Shown in pieces: positions 16,381 to 56,500 of a stretch of 64,000 nucleotides of DNA. Where the stretch lies: positions 2,403-66,402 of the forward strand of contig CAYIMR010000001.1 in the NCBI GenBank assembly GCA_964364455.1, read 5' to 3'. The notes beneath the pieces were generated by a model. It had not been told where the DNA came from, did not search any database, and saw only the letters and a program-made list of their open reading frames with translations. Source of the DNA: an uncultured Planctomycetales bacterium. GTDB taxonomy: Bacteria; Omnitrophota; Gorgyraeia; Zapsychrales; Zapsychraceae. Position 1 is the first letter of the stretch, and every line of letters begins with the position of its first letter. A program made the translations under genes and the position numbers.

Positions 16381-16437
16381 TCATTGCCCCTAAAGGCGCC
16401 GCCCCACCCGGTATTCTCGGTTGCCCGGAAAGGAGTG

Positions 16438-16539
16438 ATGAATAAAATGTTATTCGTACTGGTAACGTTCTTGATGATCGGCCTGGCTTTCTTGATCTGG
16501 ATTGCCATCGACCAATACCGCCTGAAACATCATCATTGA
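16438..16539 (+). CDS. Small hydrophobic peptide 2 (33 aa): MNKMLFVLVTFLMIGLAFLIWIAIDQYRLKHHH
   Basis: AAAGGAG Shine-Dalgarno 3-9 nt upstream of the ATG. Same TM helix plus IDQYR plus HHH pattern. Confidence 0.5.
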   Translation: MNKMLFVLVTFLMIGLAFLIWIAIDQYRLKHHH

Positions 16540-16741
16540 CCGGGTCTGCTTCGTCCCTCGCCCCTCGTCCCTCGTCCTTCATGGCCTCAAAATTCGGCGC
16601 GTTGGTCTTTCGGGCCAGATCTTCCTGAATGCCGCCCTGCGCCAAGACGCCCAAAGAAGCCGTTCGGATTGAGCCGAAGGTTAAGTTGACGAGAGACCGC
16701 GGATATGTTATAGCTACACTGTTAAATCGGGAGGTGGGATA

Positions 16742-16843
16742 ATGGGAATATATATTTTGCTCGGCGGGTTTCTTATCTTCGCGCTTATTATCGCCGAGAT
16801 CGTGATCCGTCAGGACAGGGGCCGCCATCATCACGGAGCTTGA
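16742..16843 (+). CDS. Small hydrophobic peptide 3 (33 aa): MGIYILLGGFLIFALIIAEIVIRQDRGRHHHGA
   Basis: GGGAGG upstream of the ATG. Third paralogue, with a more diverged tail (RQDRGRHHH). Confidence 0.45.
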   Translation: MGIYILLGGFLIFALIIAEIVIRQDRGRHHHGA

Positions 16844-16967
16844 TCCGCGCGATCCTTCTCCGATCGAGGCCTTCTGCGGCTTAAATATAATTCCGCCTTG
16901 ACCATATCTCTCAGACATGTTAGGATTTGACGATAATTTAGAGTAATCTTTAAAAGGAACAGAAAAG

Positions 16968-17207
16968 ATGAAACGATTAAAAGTCTTTAATAATGACCAA
17001 TGGCTGACTAAGCACTTTAAAGAATTAGTAGATAAATACGCTGGTGGATTCATTATCGCGGTTAACGGCAAGATCGTATATACCAACAAAGACGGCTCAC
17101 CGCGCGATTTAGGGAAACGCGTCAAAAGAGAATTCCCTGATGCTACGCCCTTGTTTTTCCGAGTCCCATATCCCCATGAATTTATATGCGCTCTAATCAT
17201 TCTATAA
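16968..17207 (+). CDS. DUF5678-like small protein
   Basis: In the ORF track: MKRLKVFNNDQWLTKHFKELVDKYAGGFIIAVNGKIVYTNKDGSPRDLGKRVKREF.... AAGGAACAG sits upstream of the ATG. From memory this family is typically paired with a retropepsin-like protease. Confidence 0.6.
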   Translation: MKRLKVFNNDQWLTKHFKELVDKYAGGFIIAVNGKIVYTNKDGSPRDLGKRVKREFPDATPLFFRVPYPHEFICALIIL

Positions 17208-17587
17208 AATTCCCCTACAAAACCTACAATAACATACCCTGTCCGATCATCACTCTTGATATCCGCAAAACGGCCATTGACGCCTATATCGATTCCGGAG
17301 CTTTCTACTCTATTTTCTCCATCAAGGAGGCTGAATGGCTCGGCATAGACTACACCAAAGGCAGGCAAGGCGGCGCTATGGTAGGGGACGGAAATATAAT
17401 TCCAGTATATTTTCATATCCTCCCTATAAGTATCGGCGGGATTTCCCTCAACGCCACGATAGGATTTTCCCCCAAACTTAATATCGGCTTCAACCTTTTG
17501 GGCAGAAAAGACATCTTCAACCGTTTTGTCATTATCTTCGATGACGCCAAAAGAAGTGTCACGTTGATTCCCCGCAAACACCAATAA
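17186..17587 (+). CDS. Retropepsin-like (retroviral-type) aspartic protease
   Basis: In the ORF track: ...IITLDIRKTAIDAYIDSGAFYSIF... carries the D-S-G-A catalytic motif. The ORF overlaps the DUF5678 ORF by 22 nt in a different frame, suggesting translational coupling. Confidence 0.65.
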   Translation: MRSNHSIKFPYKTYNNIPCPIITLDIRKTAIDAYIDSGAFYSIFSIKEAEWLGIDYTKGRQGGAMVGDGNIIPVYFHILPISIGGISLNATIGFSPKLNIGFNLLGRKDIFNRFVIIFDDAKRSVTLIPRKHQ

Positions 17588-17599
17588 TTCTTCAGCGCC

Positions 17600-38500: not shown

Positions 38501-41500
38501 CGCCGGGACCTCGTAGCGGCTGAAGCCAAAGTTATCGTAACGCGGCTCGGACTCCCTCCGGCGCAGGAATCCTACCTCATATTCCCTCCCCCTGATCTCC
38601 ACCCCGCGGCCGCTCTTATGCAGATCCCCGATCCTCTCGTTCTCCTTCACCGGCACAAGACCGGACGCGCCGGCGGCATCGCCCGTCCGCGTGGATTGAT
38701 AGACCTTTTCCCCGCGCAGGAAGACGCGGATCCCTTCATACTTCTTCACCGGCCTGTCGTCGGCATCCTTCAATCCCTGCCAGACGGGTCCGTTGAGATA
38801 ATCCACGGCCTCATCCGTCACCGCGCCTGTGTCAGGATCGACTTTGAGAACCTCCGTGGCCTTCCAGAGGATGCCCCTGGATCCGGGTTTCTTCGCGTCG
38901 TAGAGATACGTCGAGGCCTCCCAGAGGGGCTTATGATCCAGGCCAAGGACAGGGCTGCGGTAATATTCCGTGACATGGGTGCGCTCGAATCCGCCCGCGG
39001 CATTGACCAATCCGTCGTATTTAAACTCCTTGTTGCCGCCGGCGTCCAGGACCTCCTGCCAGACAAGATTCCTTAAAACACCGTCTGCGCCCAGCACTTT
39101 AAATTTATGGCTGGTGATCTCGGCCGTGACGCTCCCCGTCAGCGGATCATGGCCGAGCGTCCTGCCGGAGGCGATGTGCTCGTCCTTGAGGAGGTCTCCC
39201 GTCTTTGCGTCGCGCCTCATCACCCAGGCCTCGCCATTGTCCGGCTTGCCGTAGCGGGCATTGAACGACCCCTTTTCATTGCCGTAAAAATAATATATCC
39301 TCGTATTTTTGATATCGAAGGTGCCGGCGTCGTTGGCCTGTTCCCACATCTTCTTGGATACGTCCTCTTTCAGATAGGCCTCGCTCCTGGACTTGTAGAC
39401 GCGGCCCTGAGGATTCAGATAATCCTTGCGCACAACGACCGCGGGTTTCCCTGCGACGGCGTCATCCCTTTGCGTCAGCGACCTTGCGATGAGGGCGTCC
39501 GTATCGGGCGACGCATCCTCCTTCATGGGATAAATTCTCGACACGCCCTCGCCCATCACCTGCTCCCAGTCGGAATAAACCATCTCCGTCCCGAGATAAA
39601 TCCTGGCCAGCTTACGGTTCCCCATGCCAAAACGCATGACCTGTTTAGCCTCGGCGCGGATCGAATCCAGATCCAGGGCCATCTCCCTTCCGGTGACGTA
39701 ATAAGAGACGTCGTCTTTTCTCACGACAAGGAAGTTATCTTTCTGGATGCCGCCGAACAATGCCCTGCCCTTGCGGCCGAGTTCCAGGATGCCCTTGACC
39801 TCTGGTCCCACCCCAAGCGCCTTATCTTCAATCGCCTCGGAAAGCCTGCGCGGAATGTCCAGGGAATGCTCAAGCTCGCGGATCTCCACTTTGAGCTTAT
39901 CCATTTGCTTTAACGCCTCTCTCCTTTGCCGCGCGGACCAGCCCTCGGCGAGGTCCTGCTTCGCAGACGGCACTGCCCCGGATTCAGAAACCTTGGACGG
40001 CTCCGTCTGCCGCTTCGCAGGCTCAGGCGCCTCCTTCCCTGTCCACAATTTCCGCAGGGCATAAAAGGCCTCTTTGGGATTGCGGTTGATGTCCACAACG
40101 CCCCACCACTCCTCGTTGACCTCCATGTCCTCGGGGATGGAGAACGCCCGCCCGCTTGTCTCATGGCGATCCGGCCGTCCAGCCTTCCACCACTCGTCGC
40201 TGAACGTCATAAATGTCGCGCCCAGGAAGCTCTTTCCATCCGCATGTGCGACGATCTTCTTCCACGTCCTCTCGACAACGGAGGCCTGCATGGGCTGGCT
40301 CTCGCGGCCCGCCCTGCCGTCAAAGGAATCCGTCCCGGTCTCGGAGATATACCACTGCAGGCTCTCCGGAATATCCTTATCCGCCAGGATCCCCTTCCAT
40401 TCCTCAAAGGCCTTCTCGATATGATCATTCTCGTAGAAATTGACGCCCCAGACGTCGATAAGGGAAACGCCGTCCTTGACGAACCTCTTGACGACCTCTC
40501 TGGACGGCATGCCGCCGTGGGCCGTGGTCACCTTACGGGACGGATCAATCTCCTTAGTCCGCCGGGCGGCCTCTTTCAGGGCCGCGTACCAATTGTCAAC
40601 GTCGTTATCAAACTCCCTCTCAAGGTCGTTATAGTCATTGCCGAAGGACCACATGAGGATCGCGGGATGATCTTTGTGCTTCTTAATATAGTCTATGTAC
40701 CCGCCGCCGAGCATGTCCGGACCGCGGTTGCGCGTATTGTCAAAATACGGGAAGCCCACAATCACCTTGATGCCGTTCTCCGCCAGCTTGTCCAGAAACG
40801 CCTTTGACGTAATCGGATAATAGGTCCTGATGACCCTGACCCCCATTTCCTTCATAAGGTCGATGTCCCGCAGATGGCTGCCCCAGACGGTATGGCTTCT
40901 GAGATCCACGCCCTTTTCCGTCGGAGAATAGGTCAGCCCCCGTATCCGGAGGATCTTGTCCGGCTCCGCGGCGGACAAGGCCTGCGTCTGCCCGCGGGCG
41001 CCTTCGGTCTTTTGCGGCTGTTCAGGCTTATCACCGGCAGGCGCCAGCGCAGCCAGTTCCTGCGCGGCCGGCACGGCAGGCATATCCTTTATCTTCCTCT
41101 CGACTTCCTGCAATTCACCCCAGAGCTGCTTAATCCTCTCCAGCTTCTCTCTCATGGCTTCTCTGTCTTTCTGCGACAGATCATTGCCCTCCAGCCGCTT
41201 CTCAATGGCCTTGATGACCTCTTCCCTGTATCGCGGCATATCCACCGCCACCTGGCTCTTGAGCGGCAGATACCCTTCCAGCCAGGAGGCGTTGGGCTGG
41301 GGCTCATAAATAACAGTATGGCTTTCAACGGCATCCTCATACTTGCCGGACTGATTGAGATCCCTGTAATACGGATAACCCCTGCCCGGGACTTCCTTAT
41401 GGACGTCCGCCAGCTCAAAGCGCTTATCGTAACGGCGCGACGACTCCGTCAGGATTTCTTCCGTCGCCGGGACAGCCGGGGCGTCCTCTTTACGCAGGAC

Positions 41501-44500
41501 GCCGTAACCCTGGGCGAATTCCAGTTCCTGCTTCATGGTCATGAGATTCGGTTCAATGATAAGGGGATACTTGCTGTCGACGGGAACGCTGAGCCTGCCG
41601 AAATCCTCGGGCAGAATCACCATGAATGCGCCTTTCACCGAGGCGCCGGCCTTGTCGAGATAACGGACGGCCTCTCTGACGTGCCCGCTCTCATCCGTGT
41701 AAGAGAACCTGATATAATACCCGCGGCTGTTTTTGTCTATGCCGTACTGCATCAATTTCTCGATGGATATTCGATTGGCCGGCCTGCCGAGGGCATAATC
41801 CTCGGGGGAGAGCTCAACGGACATCCTGCCGTCAAAGAAACGGCCTATGCCGCCGCCCGCAGGGCCGTCTCTAAGAATCTTTATGCCGCCCTGTATCATA
41901 TCAAGCGACGGCATGACGATCCTGCCCTGCGGATCAACCAGCGTCCTGCCCTCGTAAGCATCCTCAGGCACGCCGACCTCAAAACGGGTATACTGCCATT
42001 CGGGCTTTGTCTGGTCGGGAAGGATGCTCTTGTCCTGCTCGGTCAACGGCGCCCTGACAAACGGAATCTCCTTCTTGTTCTCCTTGCTGTCTTTCTTCCA
42101 GAAGGAGATAAAGTCCTTGAAGCCCTTAAAGCTCAGGAGATTATACTTCGCGTAAGCAGAGGGAGTGCCTGACGTCGCGAGATCCGCCCCAACGCTGGTG
42201 CTCTCGGAGACGTCGTACTTTGTGGAAAGCGTGCCCTTATAATTGTCATTTGAGTCTTTGCTGACGCCGATCTTCACGTCTTTGTTGATATTCAGGCCGA
42301 CCCCGTAGGTCTCGGCTCCCTTAACGTTGCTGTAGGAGACATTCAGATTCTTGTAGCGGCCCGTCAGGCTGAAGCGGTTCGATCCGATGGCCTGCTCGGC
42401 CGTGAAATACACAGGCCCGAGATTGACATCCGCGCCGACGGAGGCGTAATATTCCTCGCGCTCCGGCCAGAGGTCGAGGTAGCCTTTCTCGTGCTCCCTG
42501 TTGAGGGAGAAATTCAGCGTGACGTTCTTGTTGAGCTCGTGCTTGAGGGTCAGCTTCTGGAAGTTATAGGCGTCCTTGCTCTTGAATTCGACGTTGCTCT
42601 GATCCGCGACCGTCTTTCCTGTGGCGGTGTCGGTAATAGTGATATTGTCAATGGTCGTCCTCTGGGCATCGGCATAACCTATCTTCAGGACAAGCCGGTT
42701 CTTTTCGCTCGCCTGATAATCCACAACGCCTTCAACGGCCCGCGTCTGCGAATTATCGCCGGCGGCGTTCACCTTGATGAATCCGGCAATCCCCAGATAG
42801 ACGTTGTTGCCCTGAACGCCGATGCTGTCCAGGATAAGGATGGCGTGCTCTGTCTTGGTGACGCCGCCCCCCGTGGCATACTCTTCGTATCTCTCCGACT
42901 TATTGTGCCCCACGGCAATCCTGTGAATAATGCCGTCGTTGTCCACGCCCGTTGTGGTGATATTCGCCAGGAAATAACTGTTGTCCGGGCTGCCGGTGTA
43001 GGAGGCCTTTGACGTCCCGACGTAGAGATCGACCCCAGGCAGGAGGTTCTGCGTGGCGAACTGCTGGAAGGTTGGAACCAGGCCCTTTCCGTCTTCCTTG
43101 ATATCCGTGAGGCTTATCTCAGAAGCCTCTGTGACAGACCTTCCGTTGAGTGCGGCCATGCGGCCGTAAGGCCTGACGTAGACGTAATACTCGTCTCCGA
43201 TTTGGACAACCGCCGGCGGGGCCCGGGTCATCCGCGCCACGTAACTTCTCAAGGCATTGAACCTGTCCGCCGTAAATTCTTGTATCCCGGCCTTCTCAAG
43301 GTTGATCTTCATCAGATGATCCGTCAAGAGAAGCACCCTGCGGTTATAATCACTGGATGCCCCGGCGAGCTCAGCAAGGGCCTTTTTGGCCTTTGTCTTG
43401 GCGTCGTCAAGGGCCTTTCCTGCCTCTTTAATGACCTTGTTTTCACGCAGGCGCGTCTGATTGGTTTCATTCGATGTCCCAAGCGATTTCAGGACATCCT
43501 CGAGCGGATTCTTGCCTGCCCCGGTGAGCGCGTCTATGGTATCAACCGCTTTCAGGAGATTCTTTTCCTCAATATCCATAATGTTCTTGACGCTCTCACC
43601 GACCCCGTCGGCGAAATATTTGCCTGTGGCGACAAGCTGATTGACCGCGTCAACAATCCTGATGCGCTCCTGAACAATCTTGAGATCTTCCCTGGCCAGC
43701 TTGAGCTTGCGTTCGATGACCTGCGCGGGCGTCTCGGAGGCGCCCTTGGACTCGACATATTTATCGTCCAGATCGGCCTGACGATGAACGCCCCAGGCAG
43801 GATTGTCGTGGTATTCTTTCTCCTGGTCAAGCGTCGGGAGCCACTGCGTGATAAGATTCCTGGTTCCCTCGGAAAACATCTTTTTATTCTCGGCCGCGAT
43901 CTTAAGATATTTCCTGTTTTCTTCTATGCGGCTCAACCGGCCCATCACCTTGGTGGTCCTCGGCTCCTTGTCATCTTCATGCCAGTAGCTCCGGACAGCC
44001 TGCCTGTCCTTGAAAATGGGCACCTTATTCTCGTAATCGGGGACGTCGACCGTCAAAGACGCCTTCAACATCTTGATCGTTCTGTCTAAGTAGGGGATTT
44101 CATTGATAAGAACATTCTTGCGCTCATTGAGAATCTCCTGCGGCGTCTGGAAGAACGTGCCTTTATCCTTGGCGTCCCATGCCAGCTTCTGATTCTTCAG
44201 CATGGGCAATCGCGTGTTCTCCAGGGCAAGCCTTTGCTCGCTCAGCGCAAGAAGCTCCTGGACAAAGGACAGCCACTTGGCATTGCCATTGGCCTTCTTG
44301 ATCTCGCCCTGCAAGTACGGGATGGTCTCGGTTCTCAGTTGATTGATGAGTTTGTTGGTATCGGACAGCCATTTCTCGACGTCCGCGCGGGGCAGGAGGA
44401 TAGTAGCATAATCTTTCTCTCGAAGCATCCTGTCGATCTCATCTCTCCCCTTCTCATCCTCCGCCTTCTTTTCCTGCGTATTGCTGATCGCCACGGCAAT

Positions 44501-47500
44501 GGCCCTCTCAACGGGCCGGAGCATATCGCCGTTGGCGTCCTTGGCCCCAAGCTGATAGCCCTCCGCGGCCGTCTTGGTGCCGGGATTGCGCAACATCCCC
44601 TCCATGTCCGCGATGTTCTTGGCAATCTCGGAACGTTTATCCTGCAGTCTGCTTGAATCCGGACCGAATATCGAGGCCGTGGCGCGATCCGCGTAGGCCT
44701 TGATCTCTTCTTTCAGCGCCGCCACAATGCCGCCGTTCTTGGCCTTTTCCCTAAGCTCGCTCATAAATTTCTCGCCGTTGGTGTCCGTGGGATCTTTGTC
44801 GAGCGCAATGGTCCTGAGACCCTTCAGGAGGTAGTTGCCGTTCATCAGCTTCACGTCCATCTTGCTCACGCCGGCCTCTATCAAATTCCCTATGGCCTTA
44901 GTCTCTTTCAGGAAGGCCTCTTTGTCGTTGCTTTTCCTGGCATCCTCCGCCTTCTTGAGGCCTTCGTACAACTCACGGGCCAGTTTCTCCTCCTTTTTAT
45001 AATCGGCTTCTTTTTGGCTCATGTTGAGATTCTCCTTCTGAACGTCGGAAAGCATCTTCTCATATGCCTTGTCCGTCTTTAATCCCGCGCCTTTCAGGAA
45101 TCCTGTGAGATCGTCGACCGAGGCCTTCATGCCGTACCTGGCCTCCGGCGAAAGCCTGTCGGCAGGCTGTTTGTCTTTTTGAACCTCATATTCAACCTCT
45201 TCCACAGGAGGCATATATCCGTCCGGCAGCCGCCTGGAAGATCCGTTCTTTTCCTGCACAAGCGCGGCAGCGGGATCGTTTTTCTGCTTGTCGGGATAAT
45301 TGGCGCCGAACCCAAGGATACGGGCCTCTCCACTGAAGCTGTCTATGTCAGGGCCTTCCACGATGATGTTGGCCGGCTGCCTGCTGCCCTGAGGCGCCGC
45401 AATAATTTTATGGGCCACAAGCGTCCCGTCGGGTTTACGCCACATGAACTTCACGTCCTTGCCTTCCTCCTGCGGCCATGTCACGTAATCGGCAACATCT
45501 TTTTCGGTAAAGAGATACCGCGAGCCTGTTCCCAAATCAGCGGCAATCGGAATCCTTTGCAACCTCTTCTCAAAGATGGCCACCTCACCCTCAACGGCCT
45601 TGGCGTCCGTATCCTTGTCCTTGCCGCTGTTCCTGATGCCCCAGACATAGGGGAGGTCCTTTGCCTTAACGTCACCCGCATCGACAACCCTGCCTTCGAT
45701 GCCGGCAATGCCCGTGACCATAACCGTGCCCTCCGGCAGCGGCGTTTCGTTGATTATCGTATCAGCCGCGCTCTTGATAATGCCTGCTTCAAACCGCGAG
45801 AACCTCTTAAAGTCGTCGCCATTTAACTCGCGCACCGGTGCCGGCCCGTTAAAATTCGCTGCCGTCTTATTAATCTCCCTGGGATTATTCATGTCAGGAA
45901 TATCGGCCCTGACCACCAGGACTGTCCGGTCTTTAATCTCCGCGGCCCAATCCTCTATCTTGACCGGCCCCTTCGACGTCCCGGCCTTTATCTTGACGAT
46001 CATGACAGGCTCGGTCATCGTCTCTGACTGGTCGACGACAACCATGTCAATCCCTGTCCTCTGCTCTTCTGGAATTGCCGCCAGGATCTTCTGCGTCTGC
46101 CACGAGCTCAAATGAAGCTCATCGGCGTTAAACATCACGGTCTGAGCGGCCTTGCCTTCCCCGTCCTTAATGTCGACGGACTCTATCCTGTTGGGCACCG
46201 GCACAAGGACTGTCTTCTTCTCTCTGATGCCGTCTTTGTTCTTCAGCCATTTCAACCGGAAGGCCTCCTTTTCAACGTCTTCCGGCCTGCCGGTATAGGG
46301 CATGGTGCGCAGATATTCGCCGCGGCTGTTGAGCACAATAAGATGCCCCGTGACGTCCGAAGGATTGACGCTTGACCGCAGGTCTTCAGGGACAAGCGGA
46401 TTCTCAAACCAGTAATGAAGTCTGGCCCCCTCGCGGCTGACGATGACAATCGGATGAACATAGCGGGCATCTCCGTCTTTCAATTCGCCTGAAATAACGC
46501 CGGGATTAACGGGGACCTTCACCTTGTTCCTTCCAAAATAAACCGTCATGCCGTCGCGCTCATATCCCCTTGAGGGGATAGTCAGCGGCATGCCCTCCCA
46601 GTCATAATGCCTGATAAATTTAAACGCTGCCGGATCCCATGTCGCGCCCAATATGATGCCGTTCTGATCTTTTCCGGAGCGGATTTCATGCAGCTCCCTC
46701 AGCCGCGGGACATCCGCCTTGGAAGGCATGATGTACTCCTGGCCTTCCGTCATCATCTGGCCGACGTCTTCAAGGTATTCCTTGGCCGCCGGCTCGGTCT
46801 CGCCCTCAAGTGTATAAAAATGGGGAACGGCGAACCGGACGCGTTTCTCCCAGATGCCGTCCTGGCCGCGGACATATTGATAGCCAAAGAGGAACCATTC
46901 GGGATGCTCTGTGTTTTTGCCATCAACCTCTATCTTGTCCCCTTCGCGGCCTCTGTATAGGGCATAAACTTTGTTCGGATCCTCATTCTCCCTTGCATCA
47001 GTCATGAAGACGACCTGCTGCGCCCCAGGAATCGGCACCGCGCCGTACTTATGCCCTCTTAACACAGAGCTGTCTTTTGGCTTACCGACAATATCGCCGA
47101 GAACCGGCAGATCGCCAAACAGGGAACTCAGCAGATCCGCAGGGAGGTCCTCCAGGATCTGGGCGGGCGTAATGACTATCTCCCTGGCCTTCTTCATGTC
47201 GGTGAAACGGTATTCGCCGGTTGTCTCATCCTTGACCATGGGCAGGGCGCTCATCTTAAGCGTCGTGGCGTCGACAAAGACCCTCGCGGCATCCAATGGC
47301 CCCTGCCATTTATCCACCCGCCAGAACGGATGTTTGCGCGTGATCACAAGGCCGCCTCTCAACGGCCACTCAAGCTGTTTGGCGCGCAGCTCATTGTAAA
47401 TCTTGGCCAGGACCTGGACGTAGGCCAGATACCCCAGGGTCATGGTGGCCGGCGAGGCCTTCGAGAGATCGTTCAAACCAATGCTCTGGACAATCAGGTC

Positions 47501-50500
47501 GAAATAGAGGCTGTAGCTGTTATCTATGCCGACGTTAAAATCTATGGAAAGATCGTTGACCTTGTTGAGGTATTTTCTGAAATTGTAAATGCTGTTGCCG
47601 GGTTTCCAGTTGAGGCCGACGCCGGCGAAGAGCCGGGTCTTGTCCTTTTCTGACAACTCCTCGTATTGCCTGAAAAGGTTGTCGATAAACGAGTACGGAT
47701 CCGTATGAATGGCCTCTGCCGATGCCTTGATAAGGCCGTAACGGGCCTCTTGCTCAAAACGCTTCTGGTCGGCATCGCCGCCCTTGGCCTGGTTGAGTTT
47801 TTTCTCTGCCTTGGCCAGATCTTTATGAAGCCTGGCTATATCCTTGATGATGCGGGCTTCTTTATGCAGGGTTGCCAGCAGCCGGGCAACCTCCGGGCGT
47901 CTGACCACATCCGCGGTCTCAGGCGCGGCCTTCGCCAACTCTTCCATGCTCTTAAATGCCCCTGCATTGCCGTCTCTGAGACGATCGATGTCCTCGGAAA
48001 TCTTGTTGATCTCTGCCTCGAAAAGTCCGGCCTCCTGGGCCCCCTGCAATAAGACCTCCCTGATTGTTGAAACGCCGACAGATTCAAGAACATCAATGGC
48101 CTTAAGCTCAGCGGACGCTTCGGCGAACCGGCCCGTCTCCTTGAGGAAATTATCGTATAAACCGCCGTAGACGCGGCCCATGACGTCCGCGGCAGCCGCC
48201 TTCGATTTCAATAACCGCGCCTCATAGGCCTCGCCGCTCGCCTCGCCCAAATCAGAATCCGTAAGCTTTAACCTGAACAGATAATGCGCCCCTCTCTTTT
48301 CTGCCCCGGCAAATGCCCCGGCTGTTCCGAGAACCGCGCCCGGCTTGATCTCGCCGCCCTGCGTGATCTCAACCGCGCCCAGATGGCCGAAGACCTGTTT
48401 AATCTTGATGCCCTCCTGGCTGGTTGACTCGACGGTAATTTCATAACCGCGCGGCCCGCGCTCGACGGCCGTGACCCTGCCGTCCAGGATGCTGCGCACG
48501 CGTGTCCCTTCCGGCACCACGTGCTCGCGGATGCCTTTCTCATAAGGAATAATCTTATAATCCGGGGAATCGCGCACCGCCATCGTCTCTGAGGTCTGTG
48601 ATTCCAGGAACCTCGGCAGGTCCACTTTTTCCTTGTCGCCGCCTTCCAGGAACGGACTCACCGGATGCCTAGAGAAGATAACGAGACTGCTTGTCATGCT
48701 GTCCGTCCCTGTGGCCTTATTCACAGTCCTAAAGAATCCTTTAAGGATCCGGCCAAGGGCATCGTTGTCTTTGATAATATCCTTGTCCGATATCACGAGG
48801 ACCAGACCCTTTCGGGCGCCTTCCTGATCTTTCAGTCCCTTCCTGGCTAAAATGTCCTCAATGCTGGCCTTTAATGCCCCGGGCAGATGATCAGCCGGCT
48901 CAATGCCTTTGTCTGTGAGCTTCATCAGGCCGCCGTCTTTTCCTTTGAACACCAAATACGGTTCCGGCATATTCAGGCCGGGCTCGCCGGAGAGGCGCAG
49001 GGCCTTGCCCTCAACCATCAATGTCTCAACAACAGGGAATATAACCTCTTTGCCGGACTCCTTCCTGGTCAGCCTGACCCTCTCTTCAATCGGCAGTTTA
49101 TATCCCGCCTCGGACGGGACATCGGCCGGCGCAACCGGACGTTTGCCCTCGGCAGCCATCTTGCGCTCAGCCACGCTGAATTCGCCCGTCCCTGACAAAT
49201 ACTCCGTGTAGCCTGCGGCTTTATCCTGGACAAAGAGCCGGCCGAGCTTGTCCTTGTCAATGTTTTTATACATGGCGATGATCTTCCTGACGTAATCCGG
49301 CGTTTCGTGGTTGCCGCTGATCTGGCCGTTAACCACCTTTGGATAATAGCTGTCGGAATGATCCGGCCCTGCGTTATATCCGGCCAGGCTGTACTGCAGC
49401 AGCTCTTTAAGCGTAGCCTTGGGATACCTGCGGCTCATCTTTTCCATAACCTCCGCCAGATAACTCACGCCTACGGTCACGTTCTTGCGCGGGTCAAAGA
49501 CATCCGGTTCGTACGGCCAGGCCTCGGGGATAACGCCCTCGCGCGCGAGACGCTGGACCGTCGCCTCCCACGTCGTGGCAATAATCTGCATGAGCCCCCT
49601 GGCGCCCTTGGGGCTGACGGCCTTCGGGTTAAACCGGCTTTCCGCGTAAACCGTCGCAAGGACCAATTTGTTAAAATCATCAAAGCTGAAGCCGAATTTC
49701 TTCTCCATGTGCCGGAATATGGCGTACCTGCCCCAGGCCTGCTTCTTAATGGGCATGAGGATATCTTCTTCAAACGACTCGGCGCTCATGACCTCATTCT
49801 CCGCCGCAGCCTTCTTGGCCTTTTCTGCGTCGGATTTCCGGGTGTTCATGCGCTCTATGTCTGCGTCCATACTGTTGAGCGCCTGACGGACGGCGAATTC
49901 CTGGGTCTTCATATCCCAGCGGCCCGTCTCCTCGATCCCAAGGTTTTTCTGCATCTCTTTCACGCGCTGTTTCAGGGCTTCCGTGTAAACGTCCGCGTTG
50001 GCCTCGGCGTCATGCTTAAACGCCATCATCTGCGCCATGTTTTGATAAACGGCCTTTTCATCGCCGGCCGGTTTGTTCGCCTCGGCGAGCCTTACGATCT
50101 GGCGGATGTGACGGACCTGCCAGCCTTTGTCACCCGCGTCAAACGTCTTTGTGTTGCGCCGGCCGAACTCCTCGGTCTCTTTCTTCATGCCCTCAAGACC
50201 AAGCATCTCCTGCTGATCGGCCAGGCTTTGCAACTGCTCTTTGATCCGCTCTTTCTCCCGCGCGTTCTCCGCCAGTTCCATCTGGGCGTTGAGCTTTTGC
50301 CGTTGTAAATCCATCCTTGCCTTGTCCTGTTCCCCGGCGGAGACCTTGCTCACCTCTGCCTCCAAATCCTTCTCGGCAAGATGAATGGCAGCTAAGTAAA
50401 ATTCTTTCTCTTTTCTTTGCAGCGTATTCCGCGCTTGTTTGAGCTGTTCCTTCGCGGCGGTGGAATCTTCCTTTTGCTGTTGAATGCGGTTGACTTCGAG

Positions 50501-53500
50501 TCCGGCCTCGATGATCGCTTTGCGAAGATCCCTTAACTCCGGCTGGACGTCTTTGAGCCTGGCCATCGCGGCTAAAAGCGCCTTTCTTTCTTTCATGGAA
50601 GGATCTGTCCGGCCTTCATATTTTGCTATGATCTCTTTTTCCACGAGGATCTGACGGTCTTCCTTCGTAAAGACATTCGCGTTCTCATCCCTGCCATGCG
50701 TCCTGAAGAAAATTTTGGTCACGTCCCTTAAAGGCATCTCATCGACCGGATAATCCGCTTCCCTTAACATCTCTTTGAGCTGCTTGATATCTTTCCCGTA
50801 TCCGAGGGCGAGGTTAAACCGGCCGAGGGAAATTTCCTCTTCTGCCGAGGCAAGCGCCCGGGCCGAGTCAAGGATTTTCTTCTGAAGCGCCCCTGTCTTT
50901 TCTGTCAGCGCCGCGGCCTTTTGTTCCGAATCCCTGGCATCCTTTTCCGCCGCTTTGAGTGCCCTGGCCTTTGCCTCGAAAGACGTCTTCAGGCTCCACT
51001 GTATTTCCCGCAAGCGGCGGTCTTCCGCTTCGTCTTTGTCGGCTTTCTTCTCACGCGCCGCCGCGCTTTCTTCCACGGCGGTAATGATCTCCTCATGGAG
51101 GCTTCGAAGCTCCTGCTCTTTCTGGTGAATTTCCTCCCGGACCTTAATCATCGCGTCCTCTGCCGGAGTTTCTGCTGACTGGGCGGCGCCTTGAACAGGC
51201 AAGGATGCGTAAGATTTCTTATACAATTCACTGAGCTCTTTAGTGACGCGCTCCGCCTGCATCTGTTTTAAGACAATCGTCTCATCGGGCGTTCTGTCCG
51301 GCTTATTCTGTAATTTCTCGATTTTCTTCACTAAGTCATTCTGTGTAACAGCTTCCATCATGCGGGACAGCTCGCCCTGCATCTCCATCAGCCTGCCTTT
51401 ATGCTCAACATCCAGCGTCTTGCCGTTCTCCAGCTCCTGCATCTGACGGATAATGTTCCTTGCCTTGGATCTTTGATCATAAGGCAGCGCATCCACCAGC
51501 CCCTCGACGCCCTGCCGGTTCTGCCCGCCGGAGGCGAGAGAAGCCATCGATCCTTCGCGCATCTGAGGAAGCTCAACGCCAAACCGGCTTAAGGCATGCT
51601 CATTGGCAAAAGACGTTGCCTGGCCCGCGGCCTCCTCGGCCACGCCAAAGATATCCTTGCCGATGTTCAAGATGCCTTTCGGACCTTCGAGGGCCTGCGT
51701 CCAGACATGGAACGGCCCGCCTATCAATTCGCCGGCAACGGTCACCGCGTGAATCTCTGCGCTGATGAGCCACAGGCCAAGAACACCTTCCCAGAACCGC
51801 CTCGCGATTCTAAGGTTAAACCAGATGTCTGCGGAAACAGATTCGCCGCTGCGATACGCGTCATAAATGCGGATGAGATTGGCAAAAAGACCGACGGAGA
51901 TAAGGTATAACGTCTTTGCCACGGCCTGCGGATAATACCGGAGGGTTGTTTTAAGGCGGGCGATTCTTCTTTTTGCCGCCGGAGGCGCCCTTGGCTGCTC
52001 AACGCGCATTTGAGCGCTCAGGGCATTGAATTCCTCCTCAAGGATGTACCGCAGGTGCCTGCCGGTCGTATAGAAAATTTTTCCTTCCCCTGCGTAAAGA
52101 ACCTTGAATACAGATTTGACATAATTTTCTCCTTGACCGCTCAACTCTGCCCCTGTCTTTCTAAACGCTCTTAATTGGGTAATAACCGCCCCTGCGTCAA
52201 TATCCATACTCGTGCGTTTCTGCAGTGTCTGTTTGTAAACTTCTTTGATCAAAGGACGCAGATTCATGAGCAGGGCTATGACAATCGTATGGAAAATCCC
52301 ACCGATCGTGAAAGAAAGTTTCAAACCGCCCTCGCCGACAAAATGGGCAGCCTGGACTGCCTTCAGCGGCGATACGAACAGCCTCAAGAGATGTTCCAGG
52401 ACATCCCATTGAATAAACACCCCGCCCAAGAGGTATGCGCCGGCGCCGGCGGCGAGGATACCGCTAACGATATACAGTGTCAGACGGGACGCTGTAAAGT
52501 CGACCATGCTGGCCAGCATGGGCACCTGCCACCACAGCGCGCGTAGCCGCCGGCTGAGCCAGCCAATCACTCCGGCTTTCATCCATCCGGATCCGCTCCT
52601 GACCTCAGCCACAACGCCTCGAATATGGTCTTGCGCGGATACCTTCTGCCTTGTGGTTCTTTGCCATGAATCGACCAGTTTCTCGAACCAGTTATCCTGT
52701 AATTTCAGTGCCACAAAGCCAAATCTGCCGGACGGTTTCATGGCAAAGAACCACCAGAAACTATGCAACAACATCTCCCCTGCGCCCGTCAACACGGCCA
52801 GCGGCATAGAAATCGTTCCGTACCGGGAATAAAGCCTGCGGGTGTATTTGATTTTGGATTCACCTTGCTGCGATTTCTTAAACATCTTATAAGATTCTTT
52901 AATCAATCTTAATTCGACCTCTTCCTGTTCTGCCGCGGAAAGGCCTGCGAGCAAATGAGCGTTCTTACCGGAAACCGCCGGCTTGACCTTTTCCTTCCAG
53001 GAAGCCGTCTCGCCACTCCACAGCCTCCAGCCGAGGACCGTGATAATGCCCATGAAGGAAAACAGAACCATGCCCAGCGCTATAAGCGATGTGACCTCAA
53101 AAGAGAATATGGAAAAGAGCACTGCCGGAAGCCATGAAAAACCGACAGCGGCGGTCATAATACCCGCAAGGAGCCCTGCTGATAAGATGCTGACGGCCTC
53201 TCTTGAAAGAAATCTTTCCTTCAAATGTCTCCATCGCCCGGTCTCTTGTGCCCCCTGCACTTCCACAGGACTTGAAACGCGCATCCCTGCGGCTTTCTTC
53301 TCTCGTCCCTCGTCCTTCATCCTTTGTTCCCCAACCGGGCTGGAAGCAAAAAGCCGTGGTGCTGGATTTGCAAACTCCCCGCCGTCTTTATCCAAACGTA
53401 TCTTCTCAAATCCTCTTCTTCTTAAAATACTGGCTATATCGTAGGCAGTCTGCGCGCATTCGTTATCGACAGAGAATCTGACCGCGTCGACATAATAAAT

Positions 53501-56500
53501 CACACTGTCTAACAGACTCGTAAATATGCCCTGTCCTTCGACATTGTATTGCCTCATATCAAAGCCGCCCAAATCAAGAATATTCCTTCCTTCTTCACTT
53601 CTTAGGCCAAAAAGTATATATGGATGCTCCGGCAGGGTACTTTCTTCCGGAAGTCGTGTATAAAGTTCCTCTTCGACAGAAACAGCCTCAAGATAAATCA
53701 CTTTTTCATTTCCCCATAACTGGATGGAAACAATGACGTTATATTCCCTCCCATCCTTTGCCGTAAACCTTGCGCCTTCGAAATATTTTTGGATCATCTC
53801 TTCGGTTATTCTTGCTTTTTCTGCTGAAGTTCGTTTTCTCACGGGGCTGGAACTCTTCACCGGCGAGGAGGCCTTGTCTTCTTGATGATCTTTCTTTTCT
53901 GCCGTATCCTGCATCTTGAACAATGCGCCTTCTTGCGTCTCCTTGGAACCCCGTCTTTCTAACACGAAAAGAACTGCCTTGGATACAACAGTAAAGACAA
54001 CAAAGACGAATCCGTAATAGGCGCGCGGATACAGGGACCGCAATGCCCTGAAGGCCGCTCCCGCCACAATGACTGAAACCCCCGTCCCAAACATCCCTTC
54101 TGTAAAGAAATAGCCCCCGGCCAAAAGGCTGGTCAGGCTGAAACCCCCTCCATAAACGCGCAATAGGATCTTCAGGCCCGCAAGAGCTGAAATCACAGGC
54201 AAAGACAAAAGTCCGAGGATAATCAAGAACGCCGCCGCTGCTGCCTGAAGCCTGTTGGCAATCAGGCTCTTCCATACGCCGGCCACGCGGCCTATCCCGC
54301 GGCGAGAGGCGCCTTTCGAATCAACAGGGCTGGAGGCGTTTTCAACGATAGACAAAGGATGAGGGATAAAAGATACGGCCATCCCTCGTCCCTCATCCTT
54401 CGTCCCTCGTCCTTCGTTAATTGAGCGCGCTGGTTGAGGTTCGGTAGCGCGGAATTCGCTTGTCACTAAAAGCTTCACAGACAAGTTGCTGGATACGGCT
54501 TTCGCTGAAGCCATCGAGTTCTTCCCAGGTTTGGTTGATACCATTGCGTTGGTACGCACGGTTCTCACCGGTGAGAACAAGATAGACCTTAAGGCGGTTA
54601 TGATCTTTGTCTTTTGCTGTAACAATGACGCAATTCGACGTGGGAACGTAGACAAAATGCTTGACTTCAAGGTTTGCACAGCTTGTGTTAAGTCGGACCA
54701 TGACAGACCTCCTTTGTTTTCGTCGCTCGTCGCTCGTATTTCGTATTTCGTAACGGGACGAACAACAGAAAGGGCATGATCAGTCCCAACCAAAACACCG
54801 GGACCAACCAGACCCTTTCGATTAACCACTTGATTTAATTTATCCTGTGCCCAAATAACTAAACGAGATACGAGATACGAGATACGAGATACGGCATTAG
54901 GTAAGCGGGCAAAGTAAGCAGCAAGCAGCACGGATAATAAGGCGATCAGGATCGTATTATTATCCATATTGCCTTTTAAAGCGGAGACAGACGGAATAAT
55001 ACTGAAGAGGGCGGTTAAACCCCTGGCGGTATTCGCGTTAACTCCTTCGGACACACGACGAGAAACATCCGAACGCTCACGCGAATCTTGAAGCGGTAAT
55101 CCAATCGGACTTGCGGCTGCACTAAACCAGCTCTCCCTGGACTCGCGGCTTCCAGCTACACCTTCAGAAGCTTCACGTGCTCCAAGGACGTTTCTGTATT
55201 GATCAACAAGGCCTACATTCGTAGAACCTTGATTGTATCCAACCCTATCAGCAGCATTGCCGTTGATTCCAATAGTCCTTACATCTATAACTACGGACCA
55301 GAGAACCTCAACAGCTTCGTTCCTGGTTAAGGCCTGCCCTACTTCTAATCCAGCAGACACTCCAAGAACTCGAACGATCCTATACCCATCATTTCTGATG
55401 GACACAGACCGCGCACTGCTTTTTCCACTTATAAGAACCACATACTGAGCTAATCCAGACCCAACTGTCGCAGGGCCAGATTCAGAATTCTTCTTATCAG
55501 CCAATTCTGAAATGGCTTCAACTTCACCAGCTGTCCTATATTCACGAGATCCCTTCCTGTTAACCAGGACGAATTCGTGTCCATAGTACTTCAGCACTTG
55601 CGCTACTAACTCCGCTACTTCTGCCAACCGTCCTCTAACATATATATATATCAGAGTAGATTGGGTACTTCTGCTGCTATTCACTCCATTCGCCACTCTT
55701 ACTGCCTGAGACACACTTCGAGAATCAGCTACTCCTTCATTTTGACCATTATGGCTTAACCCATTATGATCTGATGAGTTAGAAACATACACTTCTGACT
55801 TCTCTACTGCAAACACCACTTCTACTGTATTCTTTATCCGCTCTCCTGCCTTTTGCACTGCCTGATCCACTGCGGAAGTGGACGGCAGCTTCCAAATGCC
55901 CGGACTAGGACCGCTTCTGCCAAAGTTTGTACTAGTGTCCTGAGAAACCTGCCTGATTGGGTTATGTGCCCTGGAAACTTCTTCCTTTATATCAGGAGCC
56001 TCACCAATGCTGTTTTTCTTAATCTGGGCATACCAATCATTATGACTTGGGGCCTTTTTCACCACCTGGACTATCGGAACATCCCCAACAACACGACTGG
56101 GCGGAATGCCACCGACCGCTATTGCGGGGATGGCGGTAGCAGGCCGATCATCCCGGCCAAATGGTAACGCATCTGTTCTGGTTCCCGTATCCGCCTTGGT
56201 CGTCATAGACCCACGATCAAGCTCGTAGGTTCCCTTGATATTGCCTTTCTGATCGATCTTAAAAGGTGTCTTTCGGTCACGAGCGAGGCCAAGCTGCATA
56301 ACAGGCAATGACAGGATAGGTGCGATAACTGGCGTTCCAGGACCAAAATCTGGCGGCATAATAATAATAGGTGTTGGCGGAACAGGCAGTATGGCCTTCT
56401 CTGGGGCTAAAGAAGGTGTCATGGTCTTGAGTGCCGGCTGACCGTCAGCGGCTGTTGTTGCGGATGATTCCACCGCCGCTGACTCTTTATTCTTGCCCGA

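What the first reader, a model, noticed from the sequence alone, without database searches (positions are those of the whole stretch)
47000..51900. Cell-wall remodelling block: coiled coil, SLT lytic transglycosylase and LytM-like fold in the giant ORF
A verified SLT signature (ES..GLMQI) and an M23/LytM-like beta domain are separated by hundreds of residues of coiled coil, after N-terminal TM helices. This matches a surface-exposed murein-cleaving machine, possibly for attacking or attaching to other cells.
Basis: partly seen in the sequence, partly recalled or inferred. Interest (0 to 1): 0.6.

Follow-up and report, generated by a model that had tools for sequence, protein, structure and literature searches.

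The report
Wall-cutting cassette inside a giant gene
Inside a bacterial gene so long that it fills the whole 64-kb window, there is a real cell-wall-cutting enzyme domain next to a catalytically dead helper domain, and this pair belongs to a larger module shared by giant-gene bacteria of the phylum Omnitrophota, so it is a new example of a kind of system already described.

Summary
The whole window is one stop-free frame on the minus strand (21,333 codons, open at both ends). Within the flagged span, the SLT lytic-transglycosylase domain is real (aa 4778-4882; Pfam 63 bits; ES, GLMQ and YNAG motifs intact). The M23/LytM domain is also real (aa ~5144-5250; Pfam just above threshold; the AF2 model matches only M23 structures). 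However, it has lost its zinc ligands, so it is a degenerate, probably regulatory LytM and not a second hydrolase.

The coiled coil lies before the SLT, not between the two domains, which are separated by an unknown alpha/beta domain. The TM helices are internal (aa 3016-4090), not N-terminal.

The block is the membrane-proximal part of a conserved cassette: TM anchor, stalk, SLT, dLytM, X, Y, GH-like domain. In my searches, named homologues and all GTDB loci were Omnitrophota. In other genomes it occurs as separate ORFs. Here it sits in a GC3-rich island that is about 95% identical to another metagenome's contigs, while the upstream flank is about 76%.

An extracytoplasmic location is supported indirectly. 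Whether it cuts the producer's own wall or a prey wall is unresolved. This is a new variant of a known kind. In passing, an [AS]SSPV motif is 126-fold enriched.

The parts
1..64000 (-). One continuous open reading frame, 21,333 codons, open at both ends. Codon 1 = nt 64000-63998; aa i starts at nt 64000-3(i-1).
   Evidence: 0 stops in minus-strand frame 0; translation. Pfam domains along the whole frame.
51731..54955 (-). Cluster of 9-12 predicted TM helices (aa 3016-4090). The last four hydrophobic segments (aa 3843-4090) are conserved in homologues.
   Evidence: hydropathy and a TopPred-like scan; alignment with P0170, P0027, P0036 and P0032.
51653..51694 (-). Conserved juxtamembrane motif ALEGxxGxxxxGQ/K (aa 4103-4116), directly after the last hydrophobic segment.
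   Evidence: alignment.
49766..51196 (-). Charged, Pro/Gly-poor, heptad-like helical stretches (aa 4269-4391, 4464-4552, 4564-4598, 4647-4745). Putative coiled-coil stalk between the anchor and the SLT.
   Evidence: home-made heptad and composition scan. No structure model was made.
49901..49996 (-). Possible half PG_binding_1-like element (aa 4669-4700), below the Pfam threshold.
   Evidence: 19.9 bits against a cutoff of 23; phrog_669 match covers aa 4668-4916.
49355..49669 (-). SLT / family-1 lytic transglycosylase (GH23) domain, aa 4778-4882. Catalytic Glu E4787 is at nt 49640-49642.
48581..49093 (-). Alpha/beta domain of unknown fold (aa ~4970-5140) between SLT and LytM. Conserved in six cassette homologues.
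   Evidence: pLDDT mostly above 90; no PDB or BFVD match to this part; alignment.
48251..48571 (-). Degenerate LytM (M23-fold) domain, aa ~5144-5250. Zinc ligands are lost (E5154, E5159, L5241); H5206 and H5239 are kept.
47648..48232 (-). Long helical region after the LytM domain (aa ~5257-5451), including a heptad-like stretch at aa 5368-5445.
   Evidence: DSSP on a low-confidence model..
46181..47773 (-). Domain X (aa ~5410-5940). Function unknown. Found only next to peptidoglycan-hydrolase domains in Omnitrophota proteins.
   Evidence: no PDB relative.
41450..45592 (-). Region Y (aa ~6137-7517). Function unknown. Collinear with P0024, P0038, P0170 and L003 ORF3.
   Evidence: no PDB relative.
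40394..40690 (-). Glycoside-hydrolase clan GH-A TIM-barrel-like segment (aa 7771-7869).
   Evidence: Glyco_hydro_2_C 23.1 bits against a cutoff of 21. GH158 and GH2 structures, E from 1e-6.
38230..51820 (-). Compositional island: GC3 0.71 against 0.53 in the rest of the ORF (aa ~4060-8590). The right edge is very sharp.
36359..36421 (-). Lone TM helix (aa 9194-9214) that closes the ~5,100-aa TM-free segment. The charge bias suggests N-out/C-in.

Best explanation
**What it is.** The block is the membrane-proximal part of a large extracytoplasmic loop (aa ~4091-9193) of a polytopic giant protein from an Omnitrophota-type bacterium.

**Architecture.** A cluster of TM helices anchors the loop. A ~500-residue charged helical, coiled-coil-like stalk holds a family-1 lytic transglycosylase (SLT) away from the membrane. 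The SLT is followed in cis by an unknown alpha/beta domain and a catalytically dead LytM domain.

**How it most likely works.** The SLT cuts the glycan strands of murein. The dead LytM does not cut peptide cross-links. It more likely binds murein or gates the SLT, as the degenerate LytM domains of PrgK, DipM and EnvC do for their partner hydrolases.

**Most likely target.** I think the first substrate is the producer's own sacculus. The module would open a local gap so that the remaining ~4,000 residues of the loop (X, Y, GH-like domain) can pass through or sit in the wall. This is the role of the dedicated transglycosylases of flagella and of type III and IV secretion systems.

**Shown:**
- the domains, their motifs and their fold;
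- the conserved cassette and its restriction to Omnitrophota among named homologues and GTDB loci;
- the compositional island.

**Inferred:**
- the location outside the cytoplasm;
- the stalk function;
- the regulatory role of the LytM domain;
- which wall is cut.
For: **SLT domain.**
- Pfam 63.4 bits.
- The catalytic Glu aligns with those of Slt70 and MltC.
- ES, GLMQ and YNAG motifs are present.
- NCBIfam matches include a flagellar-assembly lytic transglycosylase.

**LytM domain.**
- The M23 fold is supported.
- The metal ligands are lost here and in all six homologues of this cassette type.
- By sequence, SpoIIQ is the best PDB match, and the regulators DipM and EnvC score alongside active M23 peptidases.

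**Precedents.**
- PrgK has a TM anchor, a degenerate LytM and an SLT, and its LytM domain down-regulates the SLT (PMC11323569).
- The DipM LytM domain interacts with the lytic transglycosylases SdpA and SdpB (PMC10336132).

**Location outside the cytoplasm.**
- There is no TM helix and no cofactor-dependent enzyme domain between aa 4091 and 9193. Radical SAM, GlgA-, GlgB- and RelA/SpoT-type domains lie beyond the later TM clusters.
- The lone TM at aa 9194 has C-flank KR 6 / DE 1 against N-flank KR 5 / DE 7.
- P0035 carries a positively charged N-terminus, one TM and an ARA|D site directly before SLT-dLytM.
- Relatives place SecA-like domains and TM clusters upstream of the lytic domains.

**Conserved collinear cassette.**
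Against: - TM parity from my hydropathy and TopPred-like scans is ambiguous. There are 9-12 helices in the first cluster, and the last two hydrophobic segments are only 'putative'. If both span the membrane, the block would be cytoplasmic.
- No proper topology predictor was available.
- The coiled coil rests on a home-made heptad scan only.
- Relatives P0029, P0032 and L004 ORF1 carry M23 domains that score well on Pfam, next to the SLT. P0029's has intact metal ligands and is accompanied by an M15-like peptidase. This looks more like a lytic arsenal than a discreet space-maker.
- A GH-like domain in the same loop also fits digestion of foreign polymers.
- No activity data exist.
- PrgK's 'SLT' turned out to be a muramidase, so the chemistry is not certain either.
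Confidence: 0.45

Rival explanations
1. Prey-directed weapon. The loop is exposed at the predator's surface or at a contact site, and the SLT, together with X, Y and the GH-like domain, digests the wall of a bacterial prey or host.
For: - West-Roberts et al. 2023 propose prey adhesion and wall digestion for Omnitrophota giant proteins and list SLT as a less common domain.
- The cassette family pairs X/Y with varied lytic domains: SLT, well-scoring M23, M15-like, and one member that NCBI names an amidase.
- A GH-A-like domain sits in the same loop.
- The closest viral analogues are wall-penetrating proteins, namely phage internal (ejection) proteins and tape measures with SLT plus M23.
Against: - The loop is anchored in the producer's membrane at both ends. 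The SLT sits only ~700 residues from the anchor.
- No outer-membrane-crossing or secretion signal was found in the window.
- The LytM domain here is dead, so cross-links cannot be cut by this block.
- The only cultured relative preys on an archaeon. From general knowledge, an SLT would not be expected to cut an archaeal wall.
Confidence: 0.3
2. Cytoplasmic or vestigial module. The last two hydrophobic segments both span the membrane, so the block stays inside the cell. The SLT and LytM domains are then decaying relics or have a function unrelated to murein.
For: - TM parity is ambiguous.
- The 2026 preprint reports that 46% of long Omnitrophota proteins are predicted 'TM-only', with the bulk on the cytoplasmic face.
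- West-Roberts et al. note unreliable topology calls.
- The LytM domain is already degenerate, and one homologue (P0024) has lost the SLT catalytic Glu.
Against: - All SLT signature motifs are intact here and in most homologues despite ~25% overall identity.
- A short homologue has a signal or anchor directly upstream.
- The lone TM at aa 9194 is oriented N-out/C-in.
- No cytoplasm-only domain lies in the 5,100-aa segment.
Confidence: 0.08
3. Captured phage or conjugative-element module. The SLT-LytM unit derives from a tape-measure, ejection or polyvalent protein, or from a T4SS hydrolase, and still serves DNA or protein transfer.
For: - The SLT plus M23 pairing is typical of such proteins.
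- The block lies in a GC3 island with a sharp edge, and the island is nearly identical in otherwise diverged copies.
Against: - tblastn of the non-SLT part (aa 4918-5945) found nothing in 50,697 phage records or 72,556 plasmid records.
- Every homologue that carries a source name is Omnitrophota, except one named Pacearchaeota, and all three GTDB loci are Omnitrophota.
- No phage or transfer genes are in the window, because it is all one ORF.
Confidence: 0.07

Closest known systems
Omnitrophota giant multi-enzyme membrane proteins ('Archaeovorin' type of West-Roberts et al. 2023; 'multi-enzyme metabolic' class of the 2026 preprint 10.64898/2026.06.07.730766)
   Same: - A stop-free ORF of more than 64 kb with many TM helices.
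- The same domain set: starch synthase, GT1, methyltransferases, radical SAM, glycoside hydrolase, HD.
- SLT is listed there as an occasional domain.
- Homologues of the cassette are Omnitrophota.
   Different: - Neither paper, in term searches of its main text, mentions a LytM/M23 partner, a GC3 island, or the [AS]SSPV motif. I also did not see the conserved anchor-SLT-dLytM-X-Y cassette in the sections I read.
- No SecA_DEAD, C39 or NUDIX domain was found inside this window. They may lie outside it.
PrgK, the cell-wall hydrolase of the pCF10 type IV secretion system (PMC11323569)
   Same: A membrane-anchored protein with a degenerate, metal-free LytM domain and an active SLT-family domain in one chain. 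The LytM domain modulates the SLT.
   Different: - The order is reversed: PrgK lists LytM before SLT, here SLT comes before LytM.
- There is no CHAP domain.
- An extra alpha/beta domain and a long stalk are present.
- The block is embedded in a polytopic ORF of more than 21,000 aa.
- There is no T4SS context, and the likely host is Gram-negative-type.
LytM factors DipM and EnvC
   Same: - A degenerate M23 fold without zinc ligands.
- From general knowledge, EnvC also combines a coiled coil with the LytM domain.
- DipM acts on soluble lytic transglycosylases (PMC10336132).
- Both are among the PDB matches.
   Different: Those are separate small periplasmic proteins that act in trans on division hydrolases. 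Here the LytM is fused in cis to the transglycosylase, and there is no link to the division machinery.
Phage wall-penetrating proteins with SLT plus M23 (cyanophage internal/ejection proteins such as the A4 pre-ejectosome 9k2v, tape measure proteins, phrog_669)
   Same: The same two domain families occur in one long, partly helical protein that has to cross a murein layer.
   Different: - I did not check whether their M23 domains keep the metal ligands.
- There is no similarity outside the two domains.
- They are not membrane-anchored at both ends.
Dedicated lytic transglycosylases of trans-envelope machines (FlgJ/BB0259-type, EtgA, VirB1)
   Same: An SLT-family enzyme is attached to a large envelope-spanning assembly and is thought to make a local gap in the producer's wall. 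The NCBIfam 'flagellar assembly lytic transglycosylase' model matches.
   Different: The match is far below that family's cutoff (37.7 against 234 bits). Those enzymes are small proteins recruited to the machine, not domains of it.

Membership tests
SLT / family-1 lytic transglycosylase (Pfam PF01464, GH23) | Profile match above the curated threshold | tested here: met
   63.4 bits against 21.3, E 1.8e-17, aa 4778-4882.
SLT / family-1 lytic transglycosylase (Pfam PF01464, GH23) | Catalytic Glu in the E-S motif, plus the G-L-M-Q and A/G-Y-N-x-G motifs | tested here: met
   the alignment places query AES on QES of Slt70 and on IES/TES of the two MltC chains. E4787, GLMQ at 4802, YNAG at 4875.
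SLT / family-1 lytic transglycosylase (Pfam PF01464, GH23) | Lysozyme-like alpha-helical fold | not tested
Only sequence matches to solved MltC, Slt70 and EmtA are available.
SLT / family-1 lytic transglycosylase (Pfam PF01464, GH23) | Non-hydrolytic cleavage giving 1,6-anhydro-MurNAc products | not testable with these tools
   This needs an enzyme assay. PrgK's SLT-family domain proved to be a muramidase.
Peptidase M23 (active zinc endopeptidase) | Profile match above the curated threshold | tested here: met
   31.0 bits against 28.7 (marginal).
Peptidase M23 (active zinc endopeptidase) | M23 beta-sheet core fold | tested here: met
   model pLDDT 80.5; 46 PDB matches at E<=1e-3, all M23/LytM, TM-score on the target 0.5-0.6.
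Peptidase M23 (active zinc endopeptidase) | Zinc ligands H-x3-D and the second His of H-x-H | tested here: not met
   His replaced by E5154, Asp by E5159 (with a one-residue insertion), and the second His of HxH by L5241. Only H5206 and H5239 remain. So this is not an active M23 peptidase.
Degenerate LytM factors (EnvC, NlpD, DipM, SpoIIQ, PrgK-LytM type) | M23 fold with lost metal ligands | tested here: met
   The same degeneracy is seen in six cassette homologues.
Degenerate LytM factors (EnvC, NlpD, DipM, SpoIIQ, PrgK-LytM type) | Binds and regulates a partner cell-wall hydrolase | not testable with these tools
   Inferred only, from PMC11323569 and PMC10336132.
Omnitrophota giant 'Archaeovorin'/multi-enzyme proteins | Giant single ORF (published set: more than 30,000 aa) with many TM helices | tested here: inconclusive
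   At least 21,333 aa and about 40 hydrophobic segments. The true length is unknown because the ORF leaves the window at both ends.
Omnitrophota giant 'Archaeovorin'/multi-enzyme proteins | Domain set of glycosyltransferases, methyltransferases, glycoside hydrolases, peptidase-like domains and radical SAM | tested here: met
   compared.
Omnitrophota giant 'Archaeovorin'/multi-enzyme proteins | Divergent SecA DEAD-like domain; C39 or S8 peptidase near the N-terminus | tested here: not met
   None was found in the window. They may lie outside it. A relative's cassette locus does carry SecA_DEAD.
Omnitrophota giant 'Archaeovorin'/multi-enzyme proteins | Encoded in an Omnitrophota genome | tested here: inconclusive
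   The source genome was not found. Named cassette homologues and all three GTDB loci are Omnitrophota, but at only 23-31% identity.
PrgK-type T4SS hydrolases | LytM-SLT-CHAP order next to T4SS genes | tested here: not met
   There is no CHAP domain, the order is reversed, and there is no T4SS context.

The most novel reading that the evidence does not exclude
The wall-cutting block is the front end of a self-contained 13.6-16.5-kb in-frame cassette: TM anchor, stalk, SLT, dead LytM, X, Y, GH-like domain. Omnitrophota swap this cassette between giant genes, in a form of bacterial domain shuffling at the 10-kb scale.

The giant ORF itself would be a polyprotein whose cytoplasmic enzyme modules are separated by [AS]SSPV linker or processing sites. 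These sites are absent from aa 3577-12195, which covers the exported loop and the TM clusters after it.

If true, this would supply the missing 'cleavage point' information for giant proteins. It would also show how such genes are assembled.
Probability: 0.2. Interest if true: 0.8.

Novelty: new variant of a known kind. Interest (0 to 1): 0.55.

Why it matters
Giant genes of Omnitrophota are known, but their function is not. The leading idea, prey cell-wall digestion, rests on scattered domain hits.

This window gives a concrete, testable unit. It contains an intact transglycosylase with a dead LytM partner, on a stalk, inside a 5,100-residue TM-free segment bounded by TM helices. The unit recurs in Omnitrophota genomes, either fused into one ORF or split across separate ORFs. 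That makes it small enough to express and assay, unlike the whole protein.

Two side observations bear on questions the literature leaves open: how giant genes are built, and whether they are processed.
- A peptide motif marks the boundaries between enzyme modules.

Tried and rejected
- **Close relatives of the SLT-LytM block.** The word-index protein search found only generic SLT proteins. Scans of GTDB genomes and JGI metagenomes found nothing.
- **Profile searches with A1 and A2.** These were swamped by SLT proteins or returned only near-identical fragments. The long homologues came only from the full HMMER scan.
- **TM parity.** Kyte-Doolittle and a TopPred-like enumeration gave conflicting counts, so I do not use parity as evidence.
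- **First AF2 job.** The model of aa 4918-5945 had mean pLDDT 50. Only the LytM part was recognisable, and X stayed unidentified.
- **X and Y.** They have no PDB sequence relatives.
- **Phage or plasmid origin.** No tblastn match was found for the non-SLT part.
- **Repeats at the island edges.** Only short matches that look like chance were found.
- **Junction of contig_433 with hisD/hisG/aroA.** Those genes have GC 0.67 and GC3 0.83-0.93. I therefore treat the junction as an assembly chimera and ignore it.
- **dN/dS against the near-identical contigs.** Not attempted, because those contigs are full of indel errors.
- **SSPV as a DNA repeat.** Rejected, because the 27 sites use 23 different codon strings.

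Full report
**1. What is in the window**

The ORF listing shows no large ORF. That is only because the tool omits ORFs that run off the ends. Counting stop codons by frame shows that minus-strand frame 0 has none in 21,333 codons, while the other five frames have 531-1,358 stops each. At the lower of the two other minus-strand frames' stop rates, this has a probability near 1e-421. The whole window is therefore an internal piece of one giant gene. I number residues from the first codon at nt 64000. The finding (nt 47000-51900) is aa 4034-5667.

**2. Checking the observation**

*SLT domain.*
- Pfam gives SLT at aa 4778-4882 (63.4 bits, threshold 21.3).
- phmmer against the PDB aligns it to MltC, Slt70 and EmtA (E from 3.6e-7). 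The catalytic Glu of those enzymes aligns with E4787.
- The ES, GLMQ (4802) and YNAG (4875) motifs are present.

*LytM domain.*
- Pfam gives Peptidase_M23 at aa 5162-5243 (31.0 bits, threshold 28.7).
- By sequence, the best PDB match is SpoIIQ. The regulatory, catalytically dead DipM and EnvC score alongside active M23 enzymes.
- An AF2 model of aa 4960-5262, built on a 13-row alignment, reached mean pLDDT 80.5.
- Foldseek against the PDB returned 46 matches at E<=1e-3, and all were M23/LytM domains.
- The alignment with canonical M23 sequences shows three changes. The His of HxxxD is E5154. The Asp is E5159, with a one-residue insertion. The second His of HxH is L5241. H5206 and H5239 remain.
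- The domain is therefore a degenerate LytM, not an active peptidase.

*Coiled coil and the inter-domain region.*
- My heptad and composition scan flags aa 4269-4391, 4464-4552, 4564-4598 and 4647-4745. All of these lie before the SLT.
- It also flags aa 5368-5445, after the LytM.
- The 280 residues between the two domains are rich in Pro and Gly. They model as a confident alpha/beta domain (aa ~4970-5140) with no PDB or viral match.

*TM helices.*
- They lie at aa 3016-4090, with at least 3,000 codons of the same ORF in front of them.
- A weak half PG_binding_1 match sits just before the SLT (19.9 bits, below threshold).

**3. The rest of the ORF**

- After the TM cluster there is no hydrophobic helix for 5,100 residues, up to a lone TM at aa 9194.
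- Two dense TM clusters follow, at aa 9795-10163 and 10824-11171.
- Beyond them the ORF carries domains that need cytoplasmic cofactors: radical SAM, GFO/IDH/MocA, UDPGP, SAM methyltransferases, two starch-synthase/GT1 units, a CBM48/alpha-amylase branching-enzyme-like unit, and HD + RelA/SpoT + ACT.
- Between aa 4091 and 9193, Pfam finds only SLT, M23, the weak PG-binding element, and a GH2_C-like TIM-barrel segment at aa 7771-7869. That last segment also matches GH158 and GH2 structures.

**4. Relatives**

*Searches.*
- The word-index search and the GTDB and JGI scans found no close relative of the block.
- The exhaustive HMMER scan found short 63-97% identical fragments. It also found distant long proteins that are collinear with the giant over thousands of residues.

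*Collinear homologues.*
- P0024 residues 1175-2268 and 2281-3442 align to giant aa 4751-5939 and 6137-7243.
- P0170 (5,342 aa) has a TM cluster, SLT-dLytM, X, Y, and then a lone TM near its end.
- P0038 has X, Y and a lone TM.
- P0035 (606 aa) has only a signal or anchor, then SLT, the alpha/beta domain and dLytM.

*Taxonomy.*
- Every homologue that carries a source name is Candidatus Omnitrophota, including Ca. Zapsychrus exili. The one exception is named Pacearchaeota.
- A GTDB scan with an X-domain alignment returned three loci, all Omnitrophota.

*Stand-alone versions of the cassette.*
- In L003 the cassette is three adjacent ORFs. ORF1 has SecA_DEAD, SecA_PP_bind and a P-loop SecA domain, followed by a TM cluster. 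ORF2 is X. ORF3 is Y plus the GH region.
- In L004, ORF1 ends with M23 then SLT, and ORF2 is X, Y and a lone TM.

*Two variants.*
- One variant is SLT, alpha/beta domain, dead LytM (this window and six homologues).
- The other has an M23 that scores well on Pfam before the SLT (P0029, P0032, L004 ORF1). P0029's M23 has intact metal ligands, and it also carries an M15-like peptidase.

X and Y have no solved relatives. They have no phage or plasmid matches either.

**5. Which side of the membrane**

Parity counts from two home-made scans disagree, so I set them aside. The last two hydrophobic segments (aa 4023-4043 and 4070-4090) are conserved but only moderately hydrophobic.

Independent hints favour an outside location:
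- The lone TM at aa 9194 has a net negative N-flank (KR 5 / DE 7) and a strongly positive C-flank (KR 6 / DE 1). P0038's lone TM is followed by RIIKRIILRFR.
- P0035 has a KR-rich N-terminus, one hydrophobic helix and an ARA|D site directly before the SLT.
- The segment lacks any cofactor-dependent enzyme domain, while the segments beyond the later TM clusters are full of them.
- Relatives carry a SecA-like motor upstream in the same ORF. West-Roberts et al. suggested such a motor exports the giant protein itself.
- The SLT signature is conserved at ~25% overall identity. That is hard to explain for a domain that never meets murein.

None of these is proof.

**6. Mechanism**

*Shown:* an intact lytic-transglycosylase-type domain and a dead LytM domain in cis, downstream of a TM cluster and long helical stretches, inside a conserved Omnitrophota cassette.

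*Inferred:*
- The stalk spaces the SLT from the membrane towards the sacculus.
- The dead LytM regulates or targets the SLT.

Two precedents support the second inference. PrgK has a TM anchor, a metal-free LytM and an active SLT-family domain, and its LytM and CHAP domains down-regulate that activity (PMC11323569). [quoted passage not shown]

Because the loop is held in the producer's membrane at both ends, and the SLT is close to the anchor, I favour local opening of the producer's own wall. That would let the rest of the loop pass or embed.

The prey-wall reading remains a serious rival. It is supported by the well-scoring M23 and M15-like domains in sister cassettes, by the GH-like domain, and by the similarity of the domain pair to phage wall-penetrating proteins.

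**7. Comparison with what is known**

- The ORF's size, TM content and enzyme set match the published Omnitrophota giant proteins.
- West-Roberts et al. already list SLT as a less common domain and propose wall degradation.
- In term searches of their main texts, neither that preprint nor the 2026 one mentions M23/LytM, a compositional island, or SSPV. I also did not see the cassette described in the sections I read.
- The block is not a member of the active M23 family, because the ligands were tested and not met.
- It is not a PrgK-type protein either, because it has no CHAP domain, the order is reversed, and there is no T4SS context.

**8. Seen in passing**

*Compositional island.* GC3 is 0.71 for aa ~4060-8590 against 0.53 elsewhere. 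The right edge is sharp, at nt ~38,230.

*Mosaic identity to another metagenome.*
- Two indel-rich contigs of ENA assembly ERZ1286166 match window nt 54,719-39,554 (L001) and 54,687-38,803 (L002, to the end of the locus) at about 95%.
- Upstream of nt ~54,700 identity drops to about 76% or nothing.
- Together with the island, this suggests that the cassette is exchanged between diverged giant genes.

*[AS]SSPV motif.*
- SSPV occurs 27 times against 0.21 expected, the most over-represented tetrapeptide.
- The sites are encoded by 23 different codon strings, so the motif is selected at the peptide level.
- Most sites in the C-terminal half that I compared with the Pfam coordinates lie between recognisable enzyme domains.
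- The motif is absent from aa 3577-12195.
- It recurs upstream of the TM anchors of P0170 and P0027.
- West-Roberts et al. state that missing cleavage-point information blocked their analysis, so this motif is a candidate worth testing.

*Perfect repeat.* A 215-nt direct repeat starts in the SSSSPV codons.

**9. Verdict**

- This is a new variant of a known kind.
- Interest is moderate. It would be higher if the cassette-exchange and processing-motif leads hold.

Noticed in passing
Whole window, minus strand. Sites at aa 319, 697, 921, 1258, 1280, 1307, 2461, 3223, 3378, 3384, 3553, 3576, 12196, 12538, 13141, 13481, 14706, 14957, 15385, 16062, 16278, 16467, 17150, 18786, 19586, 19592, 20921 (nt = 64000-3(aa-1)).: The peptide motif [AS]SSPV occurs 27 times against 0.21 expected (126-fold), the most over-represented tetrapeptide. 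The sites are encoded by 23 different codon strings, so the motif is selected at the peptide level. Most sites in the C-terminal half that I compared with the Pfam coordinates lie between recognisable enzyme domains. None lies in aa 3577-12195, which covers the wall cassette and the TM clusters. The motif also occurs three times each in P0170 and P0027, upstream of their TM anchors. It is a candidate linker, processing or modification site.
   Followed up: partly
window 38230-51820 (extended to ~54700): There is a codon-composition island inside the ORF: GC3 0.71 against 0.53 elsewhere. The edge near nt 38,230 is very sharp, falling from 0.76 to 0.35 within ~150 codons.
   Followed up: partly
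window 38803-54719 compared with L001 and L002 (ENA ERZ1286166 contig_433 and contig_6208): Two indel-rich contigs carry this segment at about 95% raw nucleotide identity. Upstream of nt ~54,700 identity falls to about 76% or nothing. This mosaic pattern suggests exchange of the cassette between diverged giant genes. In those contigs the gene is called as many small ORFs.
   Followed up: partly
L001 18316-21113: hisD, hisG and aroA at the end of contig_433 have GC 0.67 and GC3 0.83-0.93, against ~0.5 GC for the giant gene. The junction looks like an assembly chimera.
   Followed up: yes
window 12346-12560 and 7438-7652: A perfect 215-nt direct repeat lies 4,908 nt apart inside the ORF (71 identical residues, aa 17148-17218 = 18784-18854). 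It starts in the SSSSPV codons. One copy follows the alpha-amylase C-terminal domain and the other precedes the HD/RelA-SpoT unit.
   Followed up: partly
window 2-29400, minus strand (aa ~11536-21000): The same ORF strings together enzymes of cytoplasmic type: radical SAM, GFO/IDH/MocA, UDPGP, Methyltransf_28 and Methyltransf_11, two starch-synthase/GT1 units, a CBM48 + alpha-amylase (GlgB-like) unit, and HD + RelA/SpoT + ACT.
   Followed up: no
window 48581-49093 (aa ~4970-5140): A confidently modelled alpha/beta domain (pLDDT mostly above 90) lies between SLT and dLytM. It has no match in the PDB or BFVD and is conserved in six cassette homologues.
   Followed up: partly
window 51653-51694 (aa 4103-4116): The motif ALEGxxGxxxxGQ/K, right after the last hydrophobic segment, is conserved in P0170, P0027, P0036 and P0032. 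The preceding segment keeps a conserved Glu (WLISxEI).
   Followed up: no
L003 156-20436; L004 81-19486: In other Omnitrophota genomes the cassette is split into two or three adjacent large ORFs. L003 ORF1 carries SecA_DEAD, SecA_PP_bind and P-loop_SecA before its TM cluster. L004 ORF1 ends with an M23 that scores well on Pfam, then SLT.
   Followed up: partly
window 61600-62430 (aa ~525-790): There are only weak P-loop-type matches (HPr kinase C, AAA_29, AAA_16, all below threshold) in the 3,000 residues before the TM cluster. No SecA-like domain was detected there.
   Followed up: no
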